Source: Candidatus Moranbacteria bacterium UBA2282
GTDB taxonomy: Bacteria > Patescibacteriota > Minisyncoccia > Moranbacterales > UBA2206
Reading direction: 5' to 3'
DNA length: 64,000 nt
Assembly (NCBI GenBank): GCA_002345745.1
Contig: DDWQ01000003.1
Location: 6,028 to 70,027, forward strand
Made by a program: the position numbers and the translations under genes. The notes under the pieces are model-generated. The model was not told where the DNA came from and searched no databases. It saw nothing but the letters and a program-made list of their open reading frames with translations. Each line of letters starts with the position of its first letter. The first letter of the stretch is position 1. Positions 6,373 to 25,467 of this stretch are shown here, in pieces.

Positions 6373-9300
6373 ATGATAAAAATACTTTCAAAAAAATCAT
6401 CCACCCATCAAGATAATGAAACAAAAAAAGATCTGGCTACAGAAAAAGTTCTGTCCAAATTGCGTCACCAATCTGAAGAGGAACAAACATCTGCTTTTGC
6501 GGCTATGATTGGAATAAATTATATTGACACTAATCTCATTCCGATTGATTCAGACAGCATTAAGTTAATACCCGAAGAAGATTCCAGAAAATTCAATCTA
6601 GCTGCAATTGCCAAAACTGGAAAAAAAGTTACTCTCATTGCTACTAATCCAACTACTCCCGAGACAATCGCCTATTTAGGAAATCTTCGCGAAACAAATG
6701 GTTGGGAATTAAATCTTTTTATCGTTTCCGAATACAATCTAGGAAGAGTTTGGGAGCGTTACAAAAAAATTGTATTTACCGACATTCTATCTCAACTTAG
6801 TGTAAACCTGACAGGAGAAGATTTAAAAAAATTTGATGAATACCTAAAAGACCTGACCACACTCAAACAAAGAATTAATGAATTGCCAACTACCCAAGTT
6901 CTTAATGTAATTATGGGAGGAGCTTACAAGTTAGGTGCTAGTGACATTCATATTGAACCACAAGAAAAAGATTTTCGTCTACGCTACCGCATTGATGGCA
7001 TCCTGCATGATGTAGCTTTTCTGCCTCTCAATATCTTCAAGTCCATTACTAATCGTGTAAAAATGATGTCTGATATGAAATTAAACTTACGCGATATTGC
7101 TCAAGATGGAACTTTTGAAGTAAATATTAGTGAAAAGAAAATTTCAATTCGTGCTTCTATTATTCCTGGCAACTATGGCGAGAGCATTGTAATGCGTCTG
7201 CTTGATCCAGAGTCTATTCAAGTCTCAGTTGAAAATTTAGGCTTGCGTGGACTTGCCTATGAAATAGTTCAAAAACAAATTACAGCTCCCAGTGGAATGG
7301 TGCTGACAACTGGACCAACTGGTTCTGGAAAAACAACTACGCTCTATGCTATTGTGCATAAGCTCAATAATCCTGAAACAAAAATAATCACTATTGAAGA
7401 CCCAATTGAATATGAATTGGTCGGCATTTCTCAAACGCAAGTTGAAAATTCTCGTGGTTACACTTTTGCTTCTGGCTTGCGTTCTATTGTCCGTCAAGAT
7501 CCAGATGTAATTCTAGTTGGTGAAATTCGTGATGAAGAAACAGTTGATATCGCTATTAATTCAGCCCTGACAGGACATCTTGTTCTTTCCACTATTCACA
7601 CCAACAGTGCTATTGCGACAGTTTCCAGAATGATTGAAATGGGAGTCAAACCAACTTTAATCGCTCCTGCGTCCAACGCATTTATCGGTCAACGACTTGT
7701 GCGTAAATTATGTGAATGCAAAGAAGAATATATACCCGCCAGAGAATCGTTGGAATCTTTAAAGAAAATTTTATCTATTATTTCTCCTAAAGCTAAATTA
7801 GATATACCCAAAGAGATTACAAAACTCTATCGACCCAAGGGTTGTCCAAAATGCAATAACCTTGGATATAAGGGTCGCATTGGAATTTTTGAGGTTTTTA
7901 TTATTAATGAAGAAATTGAAAAACTTATTGTTAACTTTGGTTCTGAAACAGAAATCACAATGGCGGCTTTGGAAAGTGGACTGATTACAATGTTGCAAGA
8001 TGGTATTTTGAAAGCACTAGAAGGCATTACATCTATTGAAGAGGTGCGACGCACAACAGGTGAAGGAGATTTTCTGCAAGATATTTATGAAAAATTAATG
8101 TCTTCCACACTTGGACGCGGAATACTAATTGATCCAGAAAATTATACTAAAGCGCTTACGAATATTAAAAATTTCCAACAATTGCAAGAAATAGTTTCCA
8201 GTGCAACAACCAAAGATATTAATAAGATTGTTTTTGCGGCGGCTTCAATCTTGCATACTGGTGACATTCATATTGAACCAGGACCAGCTGATGTAAAAAT
8301 TAGATTCCGTATCGACGGCATTCTGCAAACCATCCTTACTTTTCCTCTCAGTGAATATCCGAATATTTTAGGAGAAATAAAGATTCTCTCGGGAGTTAAG
8401 ACTGAAGTTCGCGAAGGAGTTATTGATAGTCGTTTCACTATTAAATTTGATGAGGAAATTCCTGACATCCAAGAAAAATCAGTAGATGTGCGTGTTTCAA
8501 TTATATTAGGCGGTTATGGCGAAACTGTTGTAATGCGACTTCTGAGTAAAGCCTCCCAAGAATTAGATATTAACAAACTTGGAATTAATGAACAAAATAA
8601 GAAAAAAATTCTAACTGAAATTTCCAAACCCAACGGAGTTTTTCTCAACACCGGTCCAACTGGTTCTGGCAAGACCACAACACTCTATTCTATTATTAAT
8701 ATTCTTAATAAACCTGAAGTAAAAATCATTACAGTTGAAGATCCGATTGAATATCAAATTGAAGGTATATTGCAAACGCCTACCAATGATAAGGAGGGAT
8801 ATACTTTTTCCACAGCTTTGCGAGCACTTTTGCGTCAAAATCCTGATATTATGATGATTGGTGAAATTCGTGATGATGAAACTGCACAAATTGCCGTGCA
8901 AGCTGCTTTGACTGGACATGTAGTGCTTTCCACTATTCATACTAATGACGCTGTTGGAGCCGTACAGCGTATGCTTAATATGGGTGTTTCGCCGTCAGAT
9001 ATCGCTTCCGCCGTTAATGCTTTTATGGCACAACGGCTCGTGCGAAAATTATGTGATTGCAAAGAAGAAATTTCTCCGACACTCGAAGAAAAAGAAAAAA
9101 TCGAAATAGTATTAAAAACCATTTCCTCTAAGGCTGGCGTAGAAGTTCCAGCTATTGGCAAAATTTATAAACCCAAAGGCTGTGAGAAATGCAATAATCT
9201 TGGTTATAAAGGCCGAACTACTATTAGCGAAATTTTTGTACTTGACCGCACAATCAAAGAATTAATTAATCATAGTGCCAGCACTACTGAGCTTTCTGAC

Positions 9301-9405
9301 AAAGCTGTGGAAAACGGTATGCTCACGATGGCACAAGATGGCATTCTGAAGGTTTTAAATGGCGAAACAACGATGGAAGAAGTTGCAAGAGTTACTGATA
9401 TTTAA
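6373..9405 (+). CDS. Tandem-duplicated GspE/PilB-type type IV pilus assembly ATPase (two complete ATPase modules in one 1010-aa polypeptide)
   Basis: N-terminal T2SSE_N-like domain. Module 1 has Walker A GPTGSGKTTTLYA, Asp box IITIEDPIEY, His box LVLSTIHTNSA and a C4 zinc finger (CECK...CPKC). Module 2 has GPTGSGKTTTLYS, IITVEDPIEY, VVLSTIHTNDA and CDCK...CEKC. Confidence 0.9.
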   Translation: MIKILSKKSSTHQDNETKKDLATEKVLSKLRHQSEEEQTSAFAAMIGINYIDTNLIPIDSDSIKLIPEEDSRKFNLAAIAKTGKKVTLIATNPTTPETIAYLGNLRETNGWELNLFIVSEYNLGRVWERYKKIVFTDILSQLSVNLTGEDLKKFDEYLKDLTTLKQRINELPTTQVLNVIMGGAYKLGASDIHIEPQEKDFRLRYRIDGILHDVAFLPLNIFKSITNRVKMMSDMKLNLRDIAQDGTFEVNISEKKISIRASIIPGNYGESIVMRLLDPESIQVSVENLGLRGLAYEIVQKQITAPSGMVLTTGPTGSGKTTTLYAIVHKLNNPETKIITIEDPIEYELVGISQTQVENSRGYTFASGLRSIVRQDPDVILVGEIRDEETVDIAINSALTGHLVLSTIHTNSAIATVSRMIEMGVKPTLIAPASNAFIGQRLVRKLCECKEEYIPARESLESLKKILSIISPKAKLDIPKEITKLYRPKGCPKCNNLGYKGRIGIFEVFIINEEIEKLIVNFGSETEITMAALESGLITMLQDGILKALEGITSIEEVRRTTGEGDFLQDIYEKLMSSTLGRGILIDPENYTKALTNIKNFQQLQEIVSSATTKDINKIVFAAASILHTGDIHIEPGPADVKIRFRIDGILQTILTFPLSEYPNILGEIKILSGVKTEVREGVIDSRFTIKFDEEIPDIQEKSVDVRVSIILGGYGETVVMRLLSKASQELDINKLGINEQNKKKILTEISKPNGVFLNTGPTGSGKTTTLYSIINILNKPEVKIITVEDPIEYQIEGILQTPTNDKEGYTFSTALRALLRQNPDIMMIGEIRDDETAQIAVQAALTGHVVLSTIHTNDAVGAVQRMLNMGVSPSDIASAVNAFMAQRLVRKLCDCKEEISPTLEEKEKIEIVLKTISSKAGVEVPAIGKIYKPKGCEKCNNLGYKGRTTISEIFVLDRTIKELINHSASTTELSDKAVENGMLTMAQDGILKVLNGETTMEEVARVTDI

Positions 9406-14002: not shown

Positions 14003-14590
14003 ATGTTAATCTTTATGTCTAATGTCACAAAAAGAATATTAAAACTAACTTCCTCCCCTAAAACCGTCTTTACAGTGGCTGATTTAGCTATTTTTTGGGA
14101 AACAGAAAATAAAAATGTTCTACGCGTGACTATTTCTAGAGCCAAAAGTGCTGGCTATTTACAATCTATACAAAGAGGCCTGTATGCTCTAACTAACGCC
14201 AATATTGACCTGTTTGAATTGGCTGGCAAGCTCAAAAAACATTCCTACATAAGTTTTGAGACTGTCCTAACTCAATCCGGGGTAATCTTTCAATGGCATA
14301 ATGAAATCATTTCAGCTAGTGACAATGGGTTTGAAACAGAAAATAGTTATGGAAAGTTTACCTATCGAAAATTGCCAGAAAGCGCTCTTTTAGACAATAT
14401 TGGAATCATCAATACTGAAAATTATTTTATTGCTTCAGCTGAAAGAGCACTGTGTGATAAGATATACAAAGATGGTTTAGTTTATTTTGACGATTTGAGC
14501 GGAGTAGATGGAAAGCTCGCAATGAAAATTTCCAAAATATATCATAACAAACGTCTAGAGAAAGACATTAAAAAATTATTTTCATTATGA
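14003..14590 (+). CDS. abiEi: AbiEi-family antitoxin / transcriptional regulator (type IV TA, abortive infection AbiE)
   Basis: ~195-aa protein immediately upstream of, and overlapping by 4 nt (ATGA) with, an AbiEii-family nucleotidyltransferase gene. The operon layout is classical AbiE. The N-terminal wHTH assignment is inferred. Confidence 0.55.
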   Translation: MLIFMSNVTKRILKLTSSPKTVFTVADLAIFWETENKNVLRVTISRAKSAGYLQSIQRGLYALTNANIDLFELAGKLKKHSYISFETVLTQSGVIFQWHNEIISASDNGFETENSYGKFTYRKLPESALLDNIGIINTENYFIASAERALCDKIYKDGLVYFDDLSGVDGKLAMKISKIYHNKRLEKDIKKLFSL

Positions 14591-15309
14591 TTATCAACAA
14601 ACAACAACATAAAAAAATGATGCTAGATATTTTATCAGACATATCTTCTGATCCAATTTTAGCTATCAATCTTGGCTTCAAAGGCGGAACTTGTGTCTAT
14701 TTTTTATACAGCTTAGACCGTTTTTCTGTTGACTTGGATTTTGACTTATTAGATATTGAAAAGAAGGAAGAAGCTCTCAACAGACTAGATCTCCTCTTGG
14801 TAAAATATGGGAAGGTGAGCACAGATGGAACTATGCGTCGAAAAGTTAAATATTCAGAGGAATCTGCCACTCTCAAGGTTGACGTTTCTGATCGGATTGA
14901 GATAAATGCTCTGAATACATACGAAGTAAAAGATATTGTATCTGGAGTGCCACTCAAAATACTATCCAAAAAAGATATTTTCGCTCACAAGTTAGTCGCT
15001 ATATCTAATCGCTATAACAATAAAACAACCAACAAAGTCATTACCAATCGGGATCTATATGATGTTAATTTCTTTTTTGACAATAAGTGGGCTTTCAATG
15101 AAAAAATTATTGAGTTGCGCGTAGGAAAGAAAGCTGTCGAATATTTAGCTGACTTGAAAAAACTTATTGAAGATAAAGTTGATGCCAAGAAAATTCTAGA
15201 TGGCATTGGAGCATTGGTTGACGACAAAAAAAGACTTTGGGTTCGCAGAAATCTGAAACAAGAGGTGCTAAAAAAACTATCCCTGCAAATAGAATCAATG
15301 CGAGAATAG
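14587..15309 (+). CDS. abiEii: AbiEii/AbiGii-family nucleotidyltransferase toxin (DUF1814)
   Basis: LGFKGGTCVYFLYSLDRFSVDLDFDL matches the AbiEii GG[TS]..-R.S.D[IL]DF nucleotidyltransferase motifs. Confidence 0.75.
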   Translation: MIINKQQHKKMMLDILSDISSDPILAINLGFKGGTCVYFLYSLDRFSVDLDFDLLDIEKKEEALNRLDLLLVKYGKVSTDGTMRRKVKYSEESATLKVDVSDRIEINALNTYEVKDIVSGVPLKILSKKDIFAHKLVAISNRYNNKTTNKVITNRDLYDVNFFFDNKWAFNEKIIELRVGKKAVEYLADLKKLIEDKVDAKKILDGIGALVDDKKRLWVRRNLKQEVLKKLSLQIESMRE

Positions 15310-15392
15310 AAATTTAAATTTATTTATAAATACTTTTCTTGCTCCTAAAATTACTTTAGAATAATTATTTCTAAAAAATTGTTATTATTGCC

Positions 15393-15429
15393 CATAAAAA
15401 AGAGCAGGTGGTAAATTCACACCTGCTCT
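15393..15429 (-). terminator. Rho-independent terminator (agagcaggtg/cacctgctct 10-bp stem) oriented for the minus-strand gene at 15467-15805
   Basis: Perfect 10-bp stem at 15401-15410/15420-15429 with a 9-nt loop. The T-run follows on the minus strand (A6 at 15395-15400 on plus). Confidence 0.6.
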
Positions 15430-15466
15430 GAAGTGAGGTTAATAAATTTGATTGTTACAATCTCAT

Positions 15467-15805
15467 TTAATTTTGTTTTTTCTTGTCCAAACAATCATCA
15501 CAGATGAAGCTACAATGCGATTTAATACACCATACCATAATTGCCAATGCAATCTGCGTCATCGGTGACTCATTTATATCTACTGGTTTTGAATCAGCAT
15601 CCGCAAGGCTTTCTATATCAATGCTCCCGATATATCCAATGCCATAAACAATTTTCTTGCAGTTATCACACTCATTTTTTACCCATGGGTAAGTTTCATT
15701 TTTTTGAACATACACAATGAAAACTTTCTCTCCGCTTTCATTAAAAATATCAAACATCTTATCATTAACTTTTTCAGCTCTTAAGTTTATTTTTGTTTCT
15801 GCCAT
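15467..15805 (-). CDS. Hypothetical Cys-containing protein (start at internal Met with strong SD)
   Basis: AAGGAG sits 6 nt upstream of the ATG encoding MAETKINLRAEKV. The longer ORF start at 15865 lacks an SD. Confidence 0.45.
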   Translation of the reverse strand: MAETKINLRAEKVNDKMFDIFNESGEKVFIVYVQKNETYPWVKNECDNCKKIVYGIGYIGSIDIESLADADSKPVDINESPMTQIALAIMVWCIKSHCSFICDDCLDKKKQN

Positions 15806-16090
15806 CGCATCTCCTTTTTCCCGATATTTGTTCATTGGCCTCGGATAATGGCAACTATATTGCATTAGAAAAGAACCAGCGTCTAATTTTAATCTATTTT
15901 AGCTTTCTTAATCTTATTATACACGCTAGTCTAACAAAATAAAAATGTCAATAAATTATATAAGATGCGCACCTAGAAGTAAATTTTTCTCCCATACTCC
16001 CACCGCAAAATAAGGCATAACAATCGGCTGAATATTACTCATAGAAAGATCTGGGACGCGCATTTTCTCACTCCAATCAACTCGCCACTA

Positions 16091-16128
16091 CCATACTTAA
16101 ATTATGGCAATTGCAATATATTAAGTAT
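16091..16128. repeat. ~38-bp palindromic element, copy A (atacTtaa-attatggcaattgcaatatat-ttaAgtat)
   Basis: 8-bp perfect inverted arms around a 21-bp core containing the palindrome gcaattgc. Repeated at 16812-16849. Confidence 0.6.
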
Positions 16129-16176
16129 GTTGTTAAAATGGAGATACTCTTTTTTTAATTATTTCATTATTCACAA

Positions 16177-16782
16177 ATGACGCCAGAAAATAGTTTGCAA
16201 AAAATTGTAGATGACTTTCGTTATTCCGACAGTGTGCCAGCCACCGCTGCTAAATTTATTCTGGCAGCATTGGCCGCTGGACCGGTTATTGTTTCTGCTG
16301 CAGCTTTTCCTGGTTTATTTTCAGAATTAAATCGTACCAGTAAGAAAAATAAATATTCGCGAGACCAATTTAAACGAGCTTATCAAAACTTAAAATATAA
16401 AAAGCTCATCCAAATTGTACAGGAGGATAATGAAAAATTTGAAGTACAGCTGACTAATAGTGGCATTGCGCGAGTTAAAACCTTTTATTTCAAAACACTA
16501 AAAATACAAAAACCAAAAAAATGGGACAAGAAATGGCGAATTTTTATTTTTGACATCCCCGCCAAACCAAAAGCATATCATCAAGCACGCGAAGCGTTAC
16601 GCAAGAAAATTAAAGATCTGGGATTTTATCAAATGCAAAAAAGTGTCTGGGTCTATCCCTATGAATGCGAGGATGAAATTCTTTTTGTGGCTGAACTATT
16701 TTATGTGCAAAAATATATTGAAATCCTCACCGTTGAAAAGCTGCTTCATGAAGAAAAAATTAAAAAAATTTTCAATTTATAA
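16177..16782 (+). CDS. Hypothetical regulator-like protein: winged-helix-like middle region plus C-terminal Cas2-like/PaaX_C-like domain
   Basis: C-terminus KKWRIFIFDIPAKPKAYHQAREALRKKIKDLGFYQMQKSVWVYPYE resembles the Cas2/PaaX C-terminal fold pattern (IF.FDIP...R..LR..L...G...Q.SV...P). Flanked by the palindromic repeats. The Cas2/PaaX fold call is a motif resemblance only, not a database or structure result. Confidence 0.45.
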   Translation: MTPENSLQKIVDDFRYSDSVPATAAKFILAALAAGPVIVSAAAFPGLFSELNRTSKKNKYSRDQFKRAYQNLKYKKLIQIVQEDNEKFEVQLTNSGIARVKTFYFKTLKIQKPKKWDKKWRIFIFDIPAKPKAYHQAREALRKKIKDLGFYQMQKSVWVYPYECEDEILFVAELFYVQKYIEILTVEKLLHEEKIKKIFNL

Positions 16783-18296: not shown

Positions 18297-18468
18297 AAAT
18301 TAAAAAATCGATCTTCGAGCTGCTCTGAGACAATCTGCCGGAAGTGAAAACAAAAGTTGAACTTACCGTCTCAAAATGCTAGACTTATACTATACTAATA
18401 TACTTAACACCTATCGTAGACATGAAACGCTAATAATGACGCGCGATTCACGCTCTACGCTCAACGAT

Positions 18469-19188
18469 ATGTCAGGACATAGCAAATGGTCAACCATTAA
18501 GCGCAAGAAAGGGATTAATGATACGAAACGAGGGCAGGTTTTTACCAAACATGCCACGATGATTACAATCACTGCTCGTGATGGTGGTGGCAATCCAGAA
18601 ATGAATTTTCAATTACGCTTGGCGATTGACCGTGCGCGTTTGGACAATATGCCCAAGGAAGGTATTGACCGAGCTATCAAGAAAGGCACTGGCGAACTCA
18701 AGGATGGTGCTGAAATCGTGGAAATTATCTATGAAGGCGTGGGACCGGGTGGCGTGATGATGCTAATCAAAACTGCTACGGACAATCGGAATCGCACCGT
18801 TGGTGAGGTTAAAAGCATTTTTACTAAGGCTGGATACAAACTCGGCGAAATGGGTAGTGCGATGTGGAATTTCAAAAAAGTCGGCAGTCTCAGTGTTGCC
18901 ACTCCGTCCGGTATGACGCAAGATGAACTTGAAGAAAAGGCTATTGATGCTGGTGCAGAAGATATGATTTATGTCGACAATATCCTAGCGGTTTATACTG
19001 CACCAGAAGAATTGAAAAGCGTCCAAGAAAGTCTAGAGAAAGCTGGTCTGAAAATTGAAGATGCCGGTTTTGACTATCTCCCCTTGCAAAAAGCAATTCT
19101 TTCCGCGGATGAGCAAGTTGCATATGATAACCTCTTGGAAACATTGGACGATCAAGCTGATGTGCAGGAAATTTTTGACAATTTATAA
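18469..19188 (+). CDS. yebC: YebC/PmpR-family DNA-binding transcriptional regulator
   Basis: MSGHSKWSTIKRKKGINDTKRGQVFTK is the hallmark YebC N-terminus. Start taken at that Met, not the upstream one in the ORF track. Confidence 0.9.
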   Translation: MSGHSKWSTIKRKKGINDTKRGQVFTKHATMITITARDGGGNPEMNFQLRLAIDRARLDNMPKEGIDRAIKKGTGELKDGAEIVEIIYEGVGPGGVMMLIKTATDNRNRTVGEVKSIFTKAGYKLGEMGSAMWNFKKVGSLSVATPSGMTQDELEEKAIDAGAEDMIYVDNILAVYTAPEELKSVQESLEKAGLKIEDAGFDYLPLQKAILSADEQVAYDNLLETLDDQADVQEIFDNL

Positions 19189-19196
19189 TTTTATAT

Positions 19197-19694
19197 ATGG
19201 TAAAAGTTCTTGGCATTGATCCCGGCACAGCCACGGTTGGTTGGGCTATAATTGAGGAAAAAAAAGGAATTTTGCGTCCCGTGGCTTTCGGACACATTGC
19301 AACTAGCAAGGAAAATTCGGAAGAAAATCGTTTAATGGAGATTTCAGCTGACATTTCTGCAATTATTAAGAAGCATCAACCAAGTGAAGCAGCTGTGGAA
19401 CAACTTTTCTTTTTCAAAAATAAAAAGACCATTATTCAAGTTGGCCAAGCTCGCGGGGCAATTATCTTGACACTAGAGCAAAAAGGTGTTAAGATATCCA
19501 GTTACACACCATTGCAAGTCAAGCAGTCTGTAACCGGTTATGGCAAAGCTGAAAAAAAACAAGTGCAACTGATGGTAAAAAACATTCTGAAACTCAAGGC
19601 CATTCCAAAACCAGATGACACTGCCGATGCGCTAGCTTTGGCCATTTGTCACATTAACAGTCGTAAAATTGCAGATTTAGTTTCTAATTTATAA
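19197..19694 (+). CDS. ruvC: Holliday junction resolvase RuvC
   Basis: VLGIDPGTATVGWAII RNase H-like N-terminus, ~165 aa, in the yebC-ruvC neighbourhood. Confidence 0.9.
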   Translation: MVKVLGIDPGTATVGWAIIEEKKGILRPVAFGHIATSKENSEENRLMEISADISAIIKKHQPSEAAVEQLFFFKNKKTIIQVGQARGAIILTLEQKGVKISSYTPLQVKQSVTGYGKAEKKQVQLMVKNILKLKAIPKPDDTADALALAICHINSRKIADLVSNL

Positions 19695-19709: not shown

Positions 19710-20366
19710 ATGGAAACAGCTATCAGTCCAATAATTCGTTTTTTTATAACCGAGGGTGTCCCATTTCAAACTATAATTCTGCTTTTAATGTTGCCCGTTA
19801 TTGCGACTTTTATTGCTTTTTTGCGACAAGTCGTTGGAATTAAAGCTTTCGGTATTTATACTCCCCTCATTACAACCTTTGCTTTTCTAGCTACTAATGG
19901 CCTACGCTATGGCGTAGCTATTTTCTTGGTTGTTATCTTTGTTGGAATGCTAATGCGATTTATTCTAAAACCCTTTCGCCTGCTCTATCTTCCACGTGTA
20001 GCGATTATGCTTACCGTAGTTTCCCTAATTATTTTAACAATGCTTGTCTTTGGTGGAAACTTGCGCCGAACAGGGCTCGCTTCCGTTTCAATTTTTCCAA
20101 TTTTAATTATGATAACCCTAGTGGAAAAATTTGTAGCCACCCAAATTGAAAAAGGCAATAAAGCAGCTCTTGTTTTGGCGTTTGAAACTTTAATTATTTC
20201 TATTCTTGGTTTCTTCATTGCCAGCTGGGAAGGATTAATTGGATTGCTTATTGCTCATCCTTGGACAATTCTTCTCACACTTCCAATTAATATCATCATT
20301 GGAAAATGGACTGGCCTGCGAGTTAGCGAATATTTCCGTTTCCGCAGTATTATTAAAAAACTTTAG
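19710..20366 (+). CDS. Polytopic membrane protein (6-7 TM) associated with the ATP-grasp ligase system (7TM partner-like)
   Basis: 218 aa and almost entirely hydrophobic helices. Immediately upstream (3-bp gap) of the alpha-L-glutamate-ligase-like gene. Confidence 0.55.
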   Translation: METAISPIIRFFITEGVPFQTIILLLMLPVIATFIAFLRQVVGIKAFGIYTPLITTFAFLATNGLRYGVAIFLVVIFVGMLMRFILKPFRLLYLPRVAIMLTVVSLIILTMLVFGGNLRRTGLASVSIFPILIMITLVEKFVATQIEKGNKAALVLAFETLIISILGFFIASWEGLIGLLIAHPWTILLTLPINIIIGKWTGLRVSEYFRFRSIIKKL

Positions 20367-20369
20367 CGT

Positions 20370-21776
20370 ATGTTTGAATTTTTCAAAAACAGTCAAAAGC
20401 TTTTAGGAATGAACTCAAGAAATCTTGAATTCATTCGGCCTTTTAATCGTACGCGAGCCAAACGATTAGCTGATGATAAATTGCTTAGCAAAAGAATTCT
20501 CAAAAAAAATAATATTGCTGTGCCGAAATTAATTGCTACTATAAAGACTGTTGAAGAATTAGAAAATTTCGATTGGCAATCGCTGCCTTCTAGCTTTGCG
20601 CTGAAACCTAATCGTGGTTTTGGTGGTGAAGGTATTATCGTAGTTTATGGCAAAAAAAAGAATCACACTGATTATTGGATCAAAGCTGATCGCTCACTGA
20701 TAACAGTTGATGATTTGCGCAGTCATGTTCGCAATATTTTGGATGGCTCATTTTCACTTTCCGGCACGCCGGATGTTGCTTTTTTTGAAGAAAGGTTGCA
20801 ACTACTAAAATTATTTAAACCCTATGCCTATAAAGGCATCCCTGATATTCGTATTATTGTTTTCAATAAAGTTCCCGTGATGGCAATGTTGCGCTTGCCG
20901 ACTAAAGAATCTGGTGGTAAAGCTAATTTGCAACAAGGTGCTGTTGGAACTGGAATCGATATGGCAACTGGCGTCACAACCACAGCTATTCACGGAAAAA
21001 ATGGCTTTATTGAAAAAATTCCTGGCACGCAACTTTCCACTAGCGGTTTGCGCATTCCGCATTGGAAAAGTATGCTTCTTTTGGCTGCTAAAGCGCAAGA
21101 GGTTTCCAATTTAGGTTTTTTAGGCGTTGATATTGCCATCGATAGCAAGAATGGTCCAGAAATTTTGGAACTCAATGCTCGCCCAGGACTTTCTATTCAA
21201 ATTGCTAATCTAGCCGGACTAAAAGAAAGACTCAACCGAGTTCGCGGTATCAAAATCAAAACCATCGAGAAAGGCGTGCGTGTAGGAATGGATCTTTTCG
21301 GTGGAGAAATTGAGGAAGAGTTGGAAGAAATCTCTGGAAAGAAAATAATCGGTACTGTAGAAAAGGTGAAATTAATTGGAAAAAATGGAAAAGAAATTGA
21401 AGTTGAGGCTAGGATAGATACTGGTGCTGGAATATCTTCAATTGATAAAGCTCTAGCTGAAGAATTAGGCTTTGGCGAAGCAGTGAAACTTTGGGAAGAT
21501 TTTCATTTAGATAAAATATTAAGCACCAGCGAGATCGCAGAGTTGAGCAAAAATAAAACTTGGAAAGAACTAGAAAAACACCCAGACATAGTCGGTGTTG
21601 CCAAGACTTTTTCTGCCCATGGCGCAACTTATCGCATTGAGATAAAAGTTACGCTAATTTTAGACTCACTGCCGATTGTGTCCAAGCTATCAATCGCTAA
21701 TAGAACAGGATTGATCTACCCACTACTTGTTGGAAGAAGAGACTTAAGAAAATTTTTAATTGATGTAAATAAATGA
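20370..21776 (+). CDS. Alpha-L-glutamate ligase-like ATP-grasp enzyme (RimK-related) fused to a C-terminal retropepsin-like putative protease domain (RimB/Zn_protease family)
   Basis: The N-terminus LLGMNSRNLEFIRPFNRTRAKRLADDK and the ATP-grasp core (ALKPNRGFGGEGIIVV...GVDIAIDSKNGPEILELNARPGLS) were recalled from memory as TIGR02291-like alpha-L-glutamate-ligase; no search was run. The C-terminal ~150 aa carries ARIDTGAGISSID, which contains the retropepsin DTGA signature. Confidence 0.75.
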   Translation: MFEFFKNSQKLLGMNSRNLEFIRPFNRTRAKRLADDKLLSKRILKKNNIAVPKLIATIKTVEELENFDWQSLPSSFALKPNRGFGGEGIIVVYGKKKNHTDYWIKADRSLITVDDLRSHVRNILDGSFSLSGTPDVAFFEERLQLLKLFKPYAYKGIPDIRIIVFNKVPVMAMLRLPTKESGGKANLQQGAVGTGIDMATGVTTTAIHGKNGFIEKIPGTQLSTSGLRIPHWKSMLLLAAKAQEVSNLGFLGVDIAIDSKNGPEILELNARPGLSIQIANLAGLKERLNRVRGIKIKTIEKGVRVGMDLFGGEIEEELEEISGKKIIGTVEKVKLIGKNGKEIEVEARIDTGAGISSIDKALAEELGFGEAVKLWEDFHLDKILSTSEIAELSKNKTWKELEKHPDIVGVAKTFSAHGATYRIEIKVTLILDSLPIVSKLSIANRTGLIYPLLVGRRDLRKFLIDVNK

Positions 21777-21844
21777 TAAAAAATCACCCCTAACAACAAT
21801 CTTGTAGAGAGAGTTACTAAATAATTTATCTAAATAATATTCTT

Positions 21845-22822
21845 ATGCTTAAACTTTTATCTGAAATCAAACATGGTGGTTTTCATTCTCTTATCAAAAG
21901 GGCTGATGAACTCCATATTACTGTAAAAACCTTTACTGCTGAACCAAAATTATTAGAGCTTAAATACAAAGGCAAATCTGTTTTTATTCGCAAGGGGCAA
22001 ACTCCAGTACTGCGCAGAATGGGAAACTTTACTAGAAACAAGCAGTTTACTAAGTTTTTATTAAATACCATTGGCATTAAAACTCCCGTTGGCATTCTAG
22101 CCACATCATATCGCGAAGCACTGCCACTTATTAGAAAAGCGCAGTTATCTTATCCTTTAATTATTAAACCTCTGGATGGATCACTGGCACGGGGTGTTTC
22201 TTGGAATATTCAATCACTATCAGAACTAAAAACAGCTGTTTTATTCTTTGAAAAAACCAAAAGCTCAGAAAAATCAAAATTTTTAGTTGAAGAAATGTAT
22301 GTTGGTGATGAATTCCGAGTTCTAGTTTTTAACGATACAGTTGTTTCTTGTGTTAAAAAAGTTCCAGCTACTATTATTGGTGATGGTCAAACAACTATTC
22401 AGGAATTAGTGAAGACTTTCAATAAAACTCGAAACAAGGGTTTTGAAATAAAACTTGATGAAACCGCATTAGCGACAATAGCTCAAAATAAATTTACATT
22501 AAAATCTATTCTTCCTAAAGACTATGTTCTCAAGCTGCGTAATAATCTTAATATGTCTGATGGCGGAAGATCTATTGAGTGTACCAAACAAATGAGTGAC
22601 TATTTAAAAAAGGTTTGTATCAAAGCAACTGCTGCTGCTGGACTAACTTACAGCGGACTTGATTTGATGACAAACAATATAGGCACCAAAAAAAATGATT
22701 ATGTAATTTTAGAAATTAATCCCAATCCCTTCTATAATATGCATGAGAAACCATTGGTTGAAGGTAAGGGTGTGGATGTTTCCAAAAAAATATTACAACA
22801 TCTATTTCCTGGCCTAAAATAA
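21845..22822 (+). CDS. Second ATP-grasp ligase (RimK/cyanophycin-synthetase-like)
   Basis: FLVEEMYVGDEFRVLVFNDTVVSCV and SGLDLMTNNIGTKKNDYVILEINPNPF are ATP-grasp C-terminal motifs. Confidence 0.7.
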   Translation: MLKLLSEIKHGGFHSLIKRADELHITVKTFTAEPKLLELKYKGKSVFIRKGQTPVLRRMGNFTRNKQFTKFLLNTIGIKTPVGILATSYREALPLIRKAQLSYPLIIKPLDGSLARGVSWNIQSLSELKTAVLFFEKTKSSEKSKFLVEEMYVGDEFRVLVFNDTVVSCVKKVPATIIGDGQTTIQELVKTFNKTRNKGFEIKLDETALATIAQNKFTLKSILPKDYVLKLRNNLNMSDGGRSIECTKQMSDYLKKVCIKATAAAGLTYSGLDLMTNNIGTKKNDYVILEINPNPFYNMHEKPLVEGKGVDVSKKILQHLFPGLK

Positions 22823-22944
22823 TTCTATCCTTAATGAGTTGATAAAACCCAAAAAATCTTGTAAAATAGTAATTAACTTTGCGGATATTGCCGTAATAAA
22901 TTAAAAAGGCGTTGGTTAGCCTTAATAAGTATTAATTCTATTTT

Positions 22945-25467
22945 ATGAAAAATATATTTACTATTTTTAGAACTTTCAAACGCGCACCGTGGCCAATTCG
23001 TTGGAAAATGCTGGGTAAATTGGCATTATATGCACTTGCTGTTTTTACTTTGCTAGCAATTGGAACTTTTGCCTATTTCGCCAAAGATTTGCCAGATGCA
23101 AGTGGCATTAGCAAGCGAGCAGTGACAGAATCAACAAAAATTTATGATCGTACTGGCGACCATTTGCTCTATGACATTCACGGTGAAGAAAAAAGAACTA
23201 AAATTGAATTTGCCAGTATGCCAGACACGGTTAAGTTTGCAACAATCTCACTCGAAGACAAAAGCTTCTATTCTCATCCAGGCTTTGATGTTAAAGGTCT
23301 TCTTAATGCTGTTTTGTCTAATATTACACGCAGTGGCGGTGGTCGTGGCGGATCGACTATCACTCAACAATTTGTTAAAAATTCTATTCTAACTAGCGAA
23401 CGATCTCTTTCCCGAAAAATTAAAGAGTTAATTCTAGCCATTGAATTGGAATTTAAATTTTCTAAAGACGAAATCTTGGCAATGTACCTTAATGAAATTC
23501 CTTATGGCTCCAACGCCTATGGCGTGGAAGCGGCATCACAAACTTTTTTTGGTAAACACGCATCAGAATTAACATTGGACGAATCTGCACTACTTGCCTC
23601 CCTACCACAAGCTCCGTCATATTACTCACCCTATGGAAATAACACGGATGCTTTGCGTGGACGCCAAGTTTTTGCGCTAAATGAAATGGCTAAATTAGGT
23701 TATATAACCCAAGAGCAATCTGATGCCGCCAAAGAGGTGGATATTTTAGCTAAAATAAAACCCTCTTCTGAAAATATTACTGCTCCACATTTTGTGATGT
23801 ATGTCAAAGAATATTTAGAAAAAACTTATGGGCAAGCTCTATTGGAAAAAGGCGGGCTTAGGGTTTATACCACCCTCGATTGGGATAAGCAACAAATAGC
23901 GGAGCTTGCAGTCAAAGAAGGTGCTGTTTCTAATACAGCTAAATATAAAGCTGAGAATGCCTCCCTTGTTGCGATGGATCCACGCACAGGACAAATAATC
24001 GCTATGGTAGGTAGCAAAAATTATTTTGACAAATCCATTGATGGTCAAGTCAATGTTGCCATTCGTGATCGCCAACCAGGCTCATCATTCAAGCCCTTTG
24101 TCTATTTGACCGCCTTCCAAAAAGGCTATACACCCGAAACGCAATTATGGGATGTAGATATAAACTTCTCGACTGACGACGGCAAAACTTACAATCCAAA
24201 AAATTATGATGGCAAAAACCGCGGACCATTAGAAATGAAAAATGCCTTGGCAATGTCTCTTAATGTTCCTGCAGTGGAAACACTCTATTTAGCTGGCGTC
24301 AAAGATTCTATTACCACTGCTAAATCACTCGGTATTACTGGACTAAATAAACCCGATGATTATGGTCTTTCTTTGGTTTTGGGTGGTGGCGAAGTGACAC
24401 TTCTAGATCACACTAATGCTTATGGCACTCTAGCTACGGGTGGCATTCACCATGATAAAGTTGCTATTTTAAAAGTTCTTGATGCTGATGGTAAAAAATT
24501 AGAGGAATATAAAGAAGAATCTGGGCAAAGAGTAGTGGAAGAAAAATATGTTGCTATGCTTGATTCTGTTATCTCGGATAATTCTTTGCGTGCCCCCGTA
24601 TTTGGTACCAACAATCCATTTAATTTTACTGACCGACCTGTGGCTGCTAAAACTGGAACGACTAATGAATGGCGCGATGGTTGGGCAATGGGTTACACTC
24701 CATCAATTGTGACTGGGGTTTGGGCTGGTAATAATGACAATTCTATTATGACACCCGGTGCTGATGGAATTTTTGTAGCTGCCCCTATTTGGAGAAAATT
24801 TATGGATGGCGTTTTGAAAAATTATACTGTTGAACAATTTCCAAAATATGAAAAAGAAGATACCGGCAAGGCAGTTTTGGATGGCACACTTGATCCAATG
24901 GCAAAAATTGAAGTGTGCAAAATCAAAAAAGACAACTATTGCCTAGCTAGTGATGCTTGCCCGAAAGGTTATTCTGAAGAAAAAACTTTCTTTTCAGGTC
25001 ACAACATTCTGTGGTATGTTAACAAAGATGATCCACGCGGAGATTTTCCGAAACACCCAGAAGATGATCCACAATTTAAAAATTGGGAAAAAGCAGTGCA
25101 AAAATGGGCTGAAAATAGCAAGGATTTTTCCAAAAATGTCGCTCCAACCGAAGAATGTAAGGTTAGTGATTTTGCCAATATTGCTCCCGAAGTTAAAATC
25201 TCTGCCCCTGCTGATGGTGCTACTATATCCTCCAATTCCATTACCATTGAAGCCTCAGCGTCATCTGATTTCGGCATAGAAAAAATTTCTATCGCCGTTA
25301 ATGGCACAGAAATAGATTCCAAAAATGACGCGTCTATCAGTGCTAATTATTTAATCTCTTCTCCTGGTTCTGATTTAAAAATTACTGCCACAGCAATTAG
25401 TAAAAATGGTAGCTCCAAGGCGATATCTATTACCGTAAAGACTACCACACCAACACCAGAGCTATAA
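22945..25467 (+). CDS. Class A penicillin-binding protein (PBP1A-type glycosyltransferase + transpeptidase) with a C-terminal extension
   Basis: GT51 motif RGGSTITQQFVKN; transpeptidase SSFKP (SxxK) and KTGT motifs; N-terminal TM anchor. Confidence 0.9.
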   Translation: MKNIFTIFRTFKRAPWPIRWKMLGKLALYALAVFTLLAIGTFAYFAKDLPDASGISKRAVTESTKIYDRTGDHLLYDIHGEEKRTKIEFASMPDTVKFATISLEDKSFYSHPGFDVKGLLNAVLSNITRSGGGRGGSTITQQFVKNSILTSERSLSRKIKELILAIELEFKFSKDEILAMYLNEIPYGSNAYGVEAASQTFFGKHASELTLDESALLASLPQAPSYYSPYGNNTDALRGRQVFALNEMAKLGYITQEQSDAAKEVDILAKIKPSSENITAPHFVMYVKEYLEKTYGQALLEKGGLRVYTTLDWDKQQIAELAVKEGAVSNTAKYKAENASLVAMDPRTGQIIAMVGSKNYFDKSIDGQVNVAIRDRQPGSSFKPFVYLTAFQKGYTPETQLWDVDINFSTDDGKTYNPKNYDGKNRGPLEMKNALAMSLNVPAVETLYLAGVKDSITTAKSLGITGLNKPDDYGLSLVLGGGEVTLLDHTNAYGTLATGGIHHDKVAILKVLDADGKKLEEYKEESGQRVVEEKYVAMLDSVISDNSLRAPVFGTNNPFNFTDRPVAAKTGTTNEWRDGWAMGYTPSIVTGVWAGNNDNSIMTPGADGIFVAAPIWRKFMDGVLKNYTVEQFPKYEKEDTGKAVLDGTLDPMAKIEVCKIKKDNYCLASDACPKGYSEEKTFFSGHNILWYVNKDDPRGDFPKHPEDDPQFKNWEKAVQKWAENSKDFSKNVAPTEECKVSDFANIAPEVKISAPADGATISSNSITIEASASSDFGIEKISIAVNGTEIDSKNDASISANYLISSPGSDLKITATAISKNGSSKAISITVKTTTPTPEL

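What the first reader, a model, noticed from the sequence alone, without database searches (positions are those of the whole stretch)
19710..22822. Membrane protein + two ATP-grasp ligases, one fused to a retropepsin-like (RimB/Zn_protease-type) domain: candidate peptide-ligase modification system
The 468-aa protein has an N-terminal alpha-L-glutamate-ligase-like ATP-grasp module (LLGMNSRNLEFIRPFN start, recalled from memory as TIGR02291-like) and a C-terminal domain with the retropepsin active-site signature IDTGA. This fuses in one chain the two activities that are separate genes in the Pseudomonas rimABK system. It is preceded (3-bp gap) by a 6-7-TM membrane protein and followed by a second ATP-grasp ligase. 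The architecture matches predicted, experimentally uncharacterised amidoligase systems that may add or trim amino-acid tails on a target protein or cell-surface molecule.
Basis: partly seen in the sequence, partly recalled or inferred. Interest (0 to 1): 0.6.

Follow-up and report, generated by a model that had tools for sequence, protein, structure and literature searches.

The report
Fused peptide ligase–protease membrane system
A Moranbacteria (candidate-phyla-radiation) genome carries a compact relative of the Pseudomonas rloABC stress-tolerance operon in which the ATP-dependent amino-acid ligase and the retropepsin-like protease are one protein, beside a seven-helix membrane protein and a swappable second ligase; it is a new architectural variant of a known but poorly understood system.

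Summary
Window 19710-22822 encodes three co-directional genes:
- a 218-aa 7TM protein (PF14402);
- a 468-aa fusion of an RloC-type ATP-grasp ligase (PF14397; 42% identical to a genuine TIGR02291 protein) and a retropepsin-like domain (invariant DTGA; family profile hits RloA crystal structures at E 2.5e-8);
- a 325-aa ATP-grasp ligase resembling the G domain of cyanophycin synthetase.

The closest characterised system is rloABC of P. aeruginosa (2025), not rimABK. All three Rlo components have homologues here, but rearranged:
- the RloB homologue lacks its extracytoplasmic inactive-transglutaminase domain;
- the RloA homologue has no signal peptide or cysteines and is fused to the cytoplasmic ligase.

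Across species-representative Moranbacteria genomes the 7TM gene sits immediately upstream of the fusion gene in 77/77 loci. The third gene is a variable accessory: its own type occurs in 13/71 loci, and at least one extra ATP-grasp in 68/71. Other relatives fuse a MATCAP carboxypeptidase onto the same protein.

Most likely this is a membrane-docked, cytoplasmic machine that extends and trims acidic peptide chains. Substrate and product are unknown. A ligase-retropepsin fusion (RimBK) is already documented, so this is a new variant of a known kind, of moderate interest.

The parts
19710..20366 (+). 218-aa seven-helix membrane protein, homologous to the 7TM module of RloB only; it has no inactive-transglutaminase ectodomain. 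Predicted N-out/C-in; the cytoplasmic loops and C-tail are nearly invariant.
   Evidence: PF14402 E 3.4e-29. It matches only positions 312-507 of the 508-position RloB model NF052267. 29% identity, E 2e-15, to residues 305-496 of a canonical 502-aa RloB. K+R count is 14 in odd loops and the tail against 4 in even loops. Homologues of about 218 aa are at least 73% identical; invariant columns are listed. AF2 pLDDT 76, pTM 0.73; no solved-structure fold match.
20370..21299 (+). Residues 1-310 of the 468-aa fusion protein: RloC-type (TIGR02291-like, PF14397) ATP-grasp carboxylate-amine ligase module.
   Evidence: PF14397 229.5 bits; TIGR02291 288.7 bits (cut-off 314.2). 42% identity, E 3e-75, to a genuine TIGR02291 protein from a canonical rloABC operon. 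ATP-grasp motif residues K79, E140/E141, D254, E267, N269 and R271 are invariant in 55 homologues. Foldseek best matches are ArgX/LysX, Ddl, RimK and CphA1.
21300..21335 (+). Residues 311-322: acidic inter-domain linker GGEIEEELEEIS, predicted disordered. It is conserved in Moranbacteria but loses its acidity in distant relatives.
   Evidence: pLDDT below 50 for residues 312-326. The LFGGEIEEE[LVI]E[ED]ISG pattern is seen in nearly all of 120 homologues. The acidity decays in the 50%-identity representatives. Net charge -6.
21336..21776 (+). Residues 323-468 plus stop: retropepsin-like (RloA/RimB family, PF05618) aspartic peptidase domain. The catalytic D350-T-G-A353 is at nt 21417-21428. There is no signal peptide, no TM segment and no Cys, so it is predicted to be cytoplasmic.
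   Evidence: PF05618 30 bits against a cut-off of 27. Profile A1 hits 9g58 at E 2.5e-8, 9g59 at 8.8e-7 and 2pma at 6.7e-4. hhalign probability 98% to a canonical RloA. D350, T351, G352, A353, R422 and R445 are invariant. R348/R422/R445 align with RloA K46/R114/R137, the poly-Glu-coordinating residues, with the D-to-R spacings of 66 and 89 reproduced in 9g58. No hydrophobic segment and zero Cys.
21845..22822 (+). 325-aa stand-alone ATP-grasp ligase resembling the G domain of cyanophycin synthetase and the GshB-like half of GshAB. It is a variable accessory ligase of the locus.
   Evidence: TIGR02068 194.3 bits over model positions 163-472 only (cut-off 850). PDB 7txv/7lg5 CphA1 E 2.1e-32; 8fxh E 7e-28; GshAB 3ln6 E 6e-25. 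Orthologous cluster c3 is present in 13/71 loci, and any CphA-G-like ligase in 32/71.
19197..19694 (+). Context only: ruvC, which ends 15 bp before the 7TM gene. It is a conserved upstream anchor and is not claimed to be functionally part of the system.
   Evidence: PF02075 E 9.5e-51. RuvC lies upstream in 73/73 eligible loci, and also in a distant triple-fusion locus, L084.
22945..25467 (+). Context only: class A penicillin-binding protein (PBP1A), the downstream anchor that bounds the variable ligase cassette in Moranbacteria.
   Evidence: TIGR02074 524 bits. Present downstream in 61/62 eligible loci, but absent downstream in the more distant locus L084.

Best explanation
This is the Moranbacteria (CPR) form of the Rlo/Rim type of system, in which an ATP-grasp ligase builds a peptide chain and a retropepsin cuts it.

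Proposed mechanism:
- The 468-aa enzyme sits in the cytoplasm, probably docked on the highly conserved cytoplasmic loops and tail of the 7TM protein.
- Its RloC-type ATP-grasp half uses ATP to add alpha-linked acidic residues (most likely Glu) to a carboxylate acceptor, making a poly-acidic chain.
- Its retropepsin half, active as a homodimer, cleaves such chains endoproteolytically.
- Chain length is therefore set by synthesis against trimming. As in RimK-RimB, the protease partner may also stimulate the ligase.
- The 325-aa cyanophycin-synthetase-G-like ligase is an exchangeable accessory that adds a further residue to a peptide C-terminus.
- The product is handed to, or acts through, the 7TM protein at the membrane or envelope.

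What is shown: domain identities, conserved catalytic and poly-Glu-binding residues, predicted cytoplasmic location and topology, and strict 7TM-fusion synteny.

What is inferred: Glu specificity, the acceptor, docking on the 7TM protein, any export, and the physiological role.
For: All three Rlo components have homologues in one co-directional cluster:
- RloB 7TM module, E 2e-15;
- RloC, 42% identity, E 3e-75;
- RloA, hhalign probability 98%, and profile hits to RloA structures.

Catalytic residues are preserved:
- ATP-grasp residues are invariant, and the fold matches peptide/protein C-terminus ligases ArgX/LysX and RimK.
- DTGA is invariant, as are R422 and R445. These align with RloA R114 and R137, whose mutation abolishes poly-Glu cleavage and complementation.

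Location: the protease domain has no signal peptide, no TM segment and no Cys, whereas a canonical RloA has a lipoprotein signal.

Synteny: the 7TM gene is immediately upstream in 77/77 loci and also in a distant lineage.

Recurrent fusions and neighbours support a write/trim logic:
- further ligases, a MATCAP carboxypeptidase or YdjC are fused onto the same protein;
- the same families occur as neighbours;
- DTG decays where MATCAP is fused (9/53 intact, against 28/48 in the 400-640-aa fusion representatives), as expected if the peptidases are functionally interchangeable.

Precedent: RloA cleaves runs of 8 or more Glu, and rloB/rloC deletions suppress the triple rloA deletion (PMC12239564). 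RimB stimulates poly-alpha-Glu synthesis by RimK, and the RimBK hybrid is proteolytically active (PMC11957791).
Against: - No RloC-type ligase has a demonstrated substrate or product, so Glu specificity is extrapolated from RimK and from the protease's conserved Arg residues.
- TIGR02291 is missed by 25 bits.
- The 7TM fold matches nothing solved (best E 1.7), so export, docking and sensing cannot be told apart.
- The AF2 model gives no reliable inter-domain geometry (pTM 0.59, disordered linker).
- The flap region of the protease carries a helical insert of about 45 residues not seen in RloA, so specificity may differ.
- No encoded poly-acidic target or rpsF lies in the window.
- In Pseudomonas the protease works outside the cytoplasm, so the logic may not transfer.
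Confidence: 0.5

Rival explanations
1. Envelope or peptidoglycan tailoring. The ligases add amino acids to a cell-wall precursor (stem peptide, cross-bridge or a glycopolymer-linked peptide) on the cytoplasmic face. The 7TM protein acts as the membrane platform or flippase-like partner, and the protease edits mis-extended precursors.
For: - PBP1A lies downstream in 61/62 Moranbacteria loci.
- The variable slot sometimes holds Mur-ligase-like proteins, GT4 glycosyltransferases and YdjC deacetylases.
- Relatives carry extracytoplasmic PKD domains on the 7TM protein.
- Pfam names the ligase family 'sugar-transfer associated'.
- Pseudomonas rlo mutants have cell-shape, beta-lactam and hypo-osmotic phenotypes that the authors tentatively link to peptidoglycan.
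Against: - PBP1A adjacency is lost in the more distant locus L084, whereas 7TM-fusion linkage persists.
- GT4, YdjC and Mur-ligase genes are each present in only 5-7 of 71 loci, and none is in this window.
- The protease keeps the residues used by RloA to bind poly-Glu, not a stem-peptide-like substrate.
- Two loci have the core pair with an empty slot.
Confidence: 0.2
2. Cytoplasmic storage or osmolyte peptide metabolism. The ligases make a free poly-amino acid or a short peptide (poly-alpha-Glu, a cyanophycin-like polymer or an NAGGN-like dipeptide) and the protease remobilises it. The 7TM protein senses membrane tension or osmolarity and regulates the enzyme rather than transporting anything.
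For: - Gene 3 resembles cyanophycin synthetase G domains and N-acetylglutaminylglutamine synthetase.
- One relative has a full CphA-like 853-aa protein, and others have split Mur-ligase-like M domains.
- GNAT genes occur in some slots.
- A canonical rloABC operon sits beside an MscS-type channel and a Glu symporter.
- The Rlo phenotype is hypo-osmotic sensitivity, and free poly-Glu or Glu as an osmolyte was raised by the authors.
- RimK-RimB makes free poly-alpha-Glu.
Against: - Nothing shows that the 7TM protein is a sensor.
- Extracytoplasmic PKD or transglutaminase-like domains on its relatives point to an outward-facing role.
- The suppression genetics in Pseudomonas imply that the RloB/RloC product reaches the compartment where the secreted protease acts.
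- The window lacks the M domain and GNAT partners needed for cyanophycin or NAGGN.
Confidence: 0.15
3. RimK-like ribosome modification. [quoted passage not shown]
For: - The ligase and protease are cytoplasmic and fused, as in the proteolytically active RimBK hybrid.
- The retropepsin domain is in the RimB family.
- The fold resembles RimK.
Against: - The ligase fails the RimK family model (48.7 bits against 143.4) and is much closer to RloC.
- Domain order is the reverse of RimBK.
- The 7TM gene is immediately upstream in 77/77 loci with a 3-bp gap here, which is not incidental.
- Up to four extra ligases and extra peptidases in the locus have no counterpart in the Rim system.
- rpsF is not in the window, so its tail could not be examined.
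Confidence: 0.07

Closest known systems
rloABC operon of Pseudomonas aeruginosa/fluorescens (Lormand et al., mBio 2025, PMC12239564)
   Same: It has the same three protein families in one operon:
- a 7TM_transglut membrane protein (RloB);
- a TIGR02291/PF14397 ATP-grasp ligase (RloC; 42% identical to the window's ligase module);
- a PF05618 retropepsin-like peptidase with DTGA and the poly-Glu-coordinating Arg residues (RloA).
   Different: - Here RloA is fused to the C-terminus of RloC and lacks the signal peptide and disulfide cysteines, so it is predicted to be cytoplasmic rather than periplasmic.
- The RloB homologue lacks the whole inactive-transglutaminase ectodomain of about 300 residues.
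- Gene order is B-(C::A), not A-B-C.
- An extra, variable ATP-grasp ligase follows.
- The host is a CPR bacterium, whereas RloB was reported as 96% proteobacterial.
RimK-RimB and the RimBK hybrid (Little et al., JBC 2025, PMC11957791)
   Same: A cytoplasmic ATP-grasp alpha-L-glutamate ligase is paired with, or fused to, a retropepsin-like endopeptidase that cuts poly-Glu. The protease partner stimulates the ligase. The hybrid protein is proteolytically active.
   Different: - The ligase here is not RimK family (48.7 bits against a 143.4 cut-off).
- Domain order is ligase-protease, the reverse of RimBK, which points to an independent fusion.
- There is an obligate 7TM partner gene.
- There is no RimA, and no evidence for S6 as the target.
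Cyanophycin synthetase CphA1 G domain, CphA2 and the GshAB C-terminal ligase (for the 325-aa third gene)
   Same: It has the same ATP-grasp subfamily fold and motifs. These enzymes activate a peptide C-terminal carboxylate and add an amino acid (E 2e-32 to 7txv).
   Different: It is a stand-alone G-like domain with no N domain and no Mur-ligase M domain (194 bits against an 850 cut-off), so it is not a cyanophycin synthetase. It is interchangeable with other ATP-grasp subfamilies in relatives.
Tubulin TTL/TTLL ligases versus MATCAP/CCP peptidases (eukaryotic tail write/erase cycle); analogy only
   Same: ATP-grasp ligases add C-terminal or branch amino acids, and dedicated peptidases remove them. 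Relatives of the window's protein carry a fused MATCAP-family (PF08014) domain, and some neighbouring ligases hit the TTL model.
   Different: This is bacterial and membrane-associated, and no tubulin-like target is known. The window itself has no MATCAP gene.

Membership tests
rloABC system | RloC: cytoplasmic ATP-grasp ligase of the PF14397 / TIGR02291 family | tested here: met
   PF14397 229.5 bits (cut-off 31.4). 42% identity, E 3e-75, to a protein that scores 439.7 bits on TIGR02291 and lies in a canonical rloABC operon.
rloABC system | Passes NCBIfam TIGR02291 (hypothetical equivalog) trusted cut-off | tested here: not met
   288.7 bits against a cut-off of 314.2. The match stops at model position 291 of 317, because the C-terminal end is replaced by the linker and protease domain.
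rloABC system | RloB: 7TM_transglut membrane module | tested here: met
   PF14402 E 3.4e-29; 29% identity, E 2e-15, to RloB residues 305-496.
rloABC system | RloB: N-terminal extracytoplasmic inactive-transglutaminase domain | tested here: not met
   The protein is only 218 aa. It matches only positions 312-507 of the 508-position RloB model (82 bits against a cut-off of 900). A canonical RloB has PF14400 plus PF14402.
rloABC system | RloA: retropepsin-like peptidase with DTG(A) and Arg/Lys residues lining a poly-Glu channel | tested here: met
   PF05618 is above its cut-off. The family profile hits RloA structures at E 2.5e-8. DTGA, R422 and R445 are invariant and align with RloA D48, R114 and R137.
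rloABC system | RloA is a separate, secreted protein (signal peptide, conserved disulfide) | tested here: not met
   It is fused to the ATP-grasp module, with no hydrophobic segment and zero Cys in the domain. The canonical RloA in L086 has a lipoprotein signal.
rloABC system | Protease cleaves runs of 8 or more Glu; loss of RloB/RloC suppresses loss of the proteases | not testable with these tools
   These are biochemical and genetic properties reported in PMC12239564. Only residue conservation could be checked here.
RimK / RimB / RimBK | Ligase belongs to the RimK family (TIGR00768) | tested here: not met
   48.7 bits against a cut-off of 143.4.
RimK / RimB / RimBK | Cytoplasmic PF05618 retropepsin partner, optionally fused with the protease N-terminal to the ligase | tested here: inconclusive
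   The PF05618 domain is present and predicted to be cytoplasmic, but the domain order is the reverse of RimBK.
RimK / RimB / RimBK | Target is the C-terminal Glu of ribosomal protein S6 | not testable with these tools
   No rpsF in the 64-kb window.
Cyanophycin synthetase (third gene) | N domain + ATP-grasp G domain + Mur-ligase M domain in one protein | tested here: not met
   Only the G-domain region matches (model positions 163-472; 194 bits against a cut-off of 850). The protein is 325 aa.
Known anti-phage defence systems (PADLOC) | Any of the three proteins matches a defence-system model | tested here: not met
   No credible hit; the only match is a spurious Csn2 at E 0.0027.

The most novel reading that the evidence does not exclude
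The invariant pair (7TM protein + ligase-protease fusion) is the core of a membrane-coupled, non-ribosomal poly-amino-acid assembly and export machine. It would build an anionic peptide polymer or peptide decoration on the surface of CPR cells. The swappable cassette next to it holds 0 to 4 extra ATP-grasp ligases plus Mur-ligase-like, MATCAP, GNAT, GT4 and YdjC genes. That cassette would diversify the polymer between closely related species, in the way O-antigen or capsule loci do. The retropepsin would act as the chain-length or release determinant.
Probability: 0.15. Interest if true: 0.75.

Novelty: new variant of a known kind. Interest (0 to 1): 0.45.

Why it matters
The in vivo substrate and product of the Rlo system are unknown, although the operon matters for osmotic tolerance, beta-lactam sensitivity, biofilm formation and cell shape in Pseudomonas.

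The Moranbacteria version reduces the system to a 218-aa membrane module and one bifunctional enzyme. Ligase and protease are forced into the same compartment. This has three consequences:
- It argues that the ligase product is the protease substrate.
- It shows that the ectodomain of RloB and secretion of RloA are dispensable for some core function.
- It offers a minimal two-protein system for in vitro reconstitution.

The system is retained at high conservation in genomes as reduced as those of CPR bacteria. The ligase/peptidase cassette next to it turns over quickly between species. Together these suggest a function that is important for this lineage's envelope or physiology and varies between its species.

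Tried and rejected
1. Self-cleavage or pseudo-substrate role of the acidic linker GGEIEEELEEIS. It is conserved in Moranbacteria. However, its acidity decays in distant fusions, leaving only an amphipathic pattern. It has at most three contiguous Glu, whereas RimB needs 6 or more and RloA 8 or more. This is kept only as a minor note.
2. Anti-phage defence: no PADLOC match.
4. Confirmation of the retropepsin fold from the full-length model: the Foldseek list was filled by ATP-grasp hits, so I relied on profile-sequence and profile-profile tests instead.
5. Search for targets in the window: no rpsF, no run of 6 or more D/E, and only one ORF with an acidic C-terminus (45462-47300, minus strand), which was not pursued.
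6. Promoter and terminator scans in this AT-rich DNA were uninformative. There is no convincing terminator between ruvC and gene 3.
7. Iyer et al. 2009 (PMC3268129), which I recall as the original prediction of such amidoligase-peptidase-7TM contexts, is not held. Nothing is cited from it.
8. Literature searches for PF14402, PF14397, TIGR02291 and for a MATCAP/DUF1704 link to ATP-grasp enzymes found nothing relevant.


Full report
**Observation.** The window region 19710-22822 holds three co-directional ORFs exactly as described:
- a 218-aa protein (19710-20366);
- a 468-aa protein starting 3 bp later (20370-21776);
- a 325-aa protein after a 68-bp gap (21845-22822).

Upstream lie yebC and ruvC; ruvC ends 15 bp before the first gene. 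Downstream lies a class A PBP. No convincing terminator separates ruvC from the third gene, although consensus scans are weak evidence in this DNA of about 37% G+C.

**Domain assignment.**
- Gene 1 is PF14402 7TM_transglut (E 3.4e-29). It matches only the last 196 positions of the 508-position NCBIfam model for RloB.
- Gene 2, residues 17-292, is PF14397 ATPgrasp_ST (E 5.8e-68). Its best NCBIfam hit is TIGR02291 at 288.7 bits, under the 314.2 cut-off.
- Gene 2, residues 327-467, passes PF05618 (30.0 bits against 27) and touches the RloA3 model.
- Because that protease hit is marginal, I built a profile of the C-terminal domain from 19 homologues (A1). It hits the RloA crystal structures 9g58 (E 2.5e-8) and 9g59 (8.8e-7), the Legionella homologue 2pma (6.7e-4), and faintly Ddi1. 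It aligns to a canonical RloA with hhalign probability 98%.
- Gene 3 is an ATP-grasp ligase. It is closest to the G domain of cyanophycin synthetase (7txv, E 2.1e-32), then an ATP-grasp protein deposited as 'RimK domain-containing protein' (8fxh), and then the GshB-like half of GshAB.

**Organism and conservation.** The exact 468-aa protein is in public MAG data. The best 120 homologues are at least 69% identical, carry the same two domains, and are named Candidatus Moranbacteria or Parcubacteria where a name is given.
- Among GTDB species representatives, 258 stretches encode a relative. The best 80 are all full-length.
- In 55 aligned homologues the ligase half has about 100 invariant positions, including K79, E140/E141, D254, E267, N269 and R271. 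By alignment to RimK and my knowledge of ATP-grasp enzymes, these are the ATP- and Mg-binding motifs.
- The protease half is less conserved overall but keeps D350-T-G-A353, R422 and R445 invariant.
- In the alignments to 9g58, R348/R422/R445 fall on the positions that correspond to K46, R114 and R137 of P. aeruginosa RloA; the D-to-R spacings of 66 and 89 match. R114A and R137A abolish poly-Glu cleavage and complementation in that protein.

**Synteny.** I called ORFs in the 80 GTDB loci and matched them to the window's proteins.
- The 7TM gene is immediately upstream of the fusion gene in 77/77 loci with enough flank.
- ruvC is upstream in 73/73, and PBP1A is downstream in 61/62.
- Between the fusion gene and PBP1A lies a variable slot of 0 to about 6 kb.

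Pfam typing of the slot's gene clusters shows:
- at least seven distinct ATP-grasp subfamilies, some hitting the TTL model;
- a RimK-like ligase fused to DUF3541;
- Mur-ligase-like proteins, and one complete CphA-like 853-aa protein;
- MATCAP-family carboxypeptidases, and an unannotated 620-aa protein with an HExxH motif;
- GNAT, GT4 and YdjC proteins.

At least one extra ATP-grasp is present in 68/71 loci, usually one to three. The window's own type of third gene occurs in only 13/71, and two loci have an empty slot. So the 7TM gene and the fusion gene form the invariant core, and gene 3 is one exchangeable accessory.

**Wider family.** An exhaustive HMMER search of 1.84 billion cluster representatives found 428 clusters at E 1e-30 or better. 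Several architectures appear besides the fusions of about 470 aa:
- Many proteins are about 780-820 aa. Those typed by Pfam (P0249, P0255; also P0242 at 916 aa) carry a MATCAP domain after the protease domain.
- Other variants carry YdjC or a second ATP-grasp domain.
- Proteins of 300-330 aa score well above the TIGR02291 cut-off and are 42-44% identical to the window's ligase.

In the long forms the DTG motif is intact in only 9/53, against 28/48 of the 400-640-aa fusions and 120/120 of the close homologues. This is the pattern expected if the retropepsin is a working enzyme here and becomes dispensable when another peptidase is attached.

One triple fusion sits in the same slot: yebC-ruvC-(PKD + 7TM)-fusion, followed by three ATP-grasp genes and another MATCAP gene.

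**Comparison with the known system.** NCBIfam's RloB and RloA3 names led to Lormand et al. 2025 (PMC12239564). That paper reports the following:
- RloA proteins are secreted, dimeric, retropepsin-like enzymes that cut runs of 8 or more Glu.
- RloB is a 7TM protein with a periplasmic inactive-transglutaminase domain.
- RloC is a cytoplasmic ATP-grasp protein.
- Deleting rloB or rloC suppresses the hypo-osmotic lethality of the triple rloA mutant.

I fetched a canonical rloA-rloB-rloC operon (L086) and compared it directly:

| Window protein | Canonical counterpart | Result |
|---|---|---|
| 7TM protein | RloB residues 305-496 | 29% identity, E 2e-15 |
| Fusion, residues 11-310 | RloC | 42% identity, E 3e-75 |
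| Protease-domain profile A1 | RloA | hhalign probability 98% |

The differences are clear:
- The canonical RloA has a lipoprotein signal peptide. The window's domain has no hydrophobic segment and no cysteine, and it is fused to an ATP-using enzyme, so it should be cytoplasmic.
- The window's 7TM protein lacks the ectodomain.
- Its topology is N-out/C-in (14 against 4 K+R). This puts its most conserved segments on the cytoplasmic face, where the fusion protein is.

A ligase-retropepsin hybrid is already known. RimBK of Desulfotalea is proteolytically active, and RimB stimulates poly-alpha-Glu synthesis by RimK (PMC11957791). Here the ligase is not RimK family and the domain order is reversed, so this looks like an independent fusion of an analogous pair.

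**Structure.**
- AF2 models the fusion as two folded domains (pLDDT 77.9) joined by a disordered linker at residues 312-326.
- The ligase half resembles ArgX/LysX, Ddl, RimK, CphA1 and PsnB.
- The protease half is predicted as beta-strands with a helical insert of about 45 residues at roughly 360-401. By sequence position this is about where RloA has its flaps; that placement is my inference.
- The 7TM model (pLDDT 76) has no significant match among solved structures.

**Mechanism.** The best-supported reading is a cytoplasmic, membrane-docked write-and-trim enzyme.
- The RloC-type half extends an acidic alpha-peptide chain on a carboxylate acceptor.
- The dimeric retropepsin half cuts such chains.
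- The accessory G-like ligase adds a further residue.
- The 7TM protein receives, exports or responds to the product.

Only the homology, the residues, the predicted location and the linkage are shown. Glu specificity, the acceptor and the role of the 7TM protein are inferred. The rival readings are envelope or peptidoglycan tailoring, storage or osmolyte peptide metabolism, and S6 modification. They differ mainly in the target and are weighed in the report sections.

**Verdict.** The closest comparator is rloABC. The arrangement is a new architectural variant of a known kind: a fused, cytoplasmic protease, a membrane partner without an ectodomain, a variable ligase cassette, and a CPR host. 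Interest is moderate.

Noticed in passing
Loci L004-L083, between the fusion gene and PBP1A; in the window this slot is 21777-22944: The slot is a hypervariable cassette across Moranbacteria species. It holds 0-4 extra ATP-grasp ligases from at least 7 subfamilies, plus Mur-ligase-like, CphA-like, MATCAP, DUF3541, GNAT, GT4 and YdjC genes in changing combinations, while the flanking genes stay fixed.
   Followed up: partly
P0249, P0255, P0242 and about 50 other representatives of 640-930 aa; locus L084 3474-5876: P0249, P0255 and P0242 are triple fusions: ATPgrasp_ST + retropepsin + MATCAP-family metallocarboxypeptidase. The other long representatives were not typed individually. In the long forms as a group the retropepsin DTG motif is mostly degenerate (intact in 9/53), which suggests that the protease domain has become a scaffold there.
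   Followed up: partly
L080 6443-8026 and L084 1870-3420: In some relatives the 7TM protein carries an N-terminal PKD domain (516-527 aa). It sits in the position where proteobacterial RloB has its inactive-transglutaminase domain, so different ectodomains are attached to the same membrane module.
   Followed up: no
L086 242-8592: A canonical rloA-rloB-rloC operon is immediately followed by an AstE/AspA-type deacylase and an MscS-family mechanosensitive channel, and preceded by a glutamate symporter. This context fits the osmotic and glutamate theme of Rlo.
   Followed up: no
window 21300-21335 (residues 311-322 of the fusion): The acidic linker GGEIEEELEEIS is almost invariant among 120 Moranbacteria homologues even though it is predicted to be disordered. 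Its acidity is lost in distant fusions. Its function is unexplained; self-cleavage looks unlikely.
   Followed up: partly
L082 12200-14059 (minus strand) and five other loci (cluster c9): A protein of about 620 aa with no Pfam hit but an HEIGH (HExxH) motif recurs in the variable slot. It is possibly another metallopeptidase of the system.
   Followed up: no
window 14003-16782: An AbiEii-type nucleotidyltransferase toxin gene (14587-15309), with an upstream 195-aa partner ORF and a PaaX-like gene (16177-16782), lies between the LTD-PKD surface protein gene and trmB. The three relatives for which gene tables were seen (L001-L003) have no such genes there, so it may be an insertion.
   Followed up: no
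window 6373-9405: A 1010-aa protein shows two matched stretches of the T2SSE (type II/IV secretion ATPase) model at 754 bits, that is, an apparent tandem PilB/GspE-like ATPase.
   Followed up: no
window 18376-19188: The yebC ORF as listed (270 aa) has a 31-residue N-terminal extension that the family models do not cover. Relatives are 238-240 aa, so the real start is probably the ATG at 18469.
   Followed up: partly
L011, L015-L018, L024, L025, L039, L082 and other record titles: Several GTDB records that carry this Moranbacteria-type locus are titled 'uncultured Bdellovibrionales', 'Bathyarchaeia archaeon' or 'Micavibrio sp.'. The conserved yebC-ruvC-7TM-fusion-PBP1A synteny suggests that these labels are wrong.
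   Followed up: no
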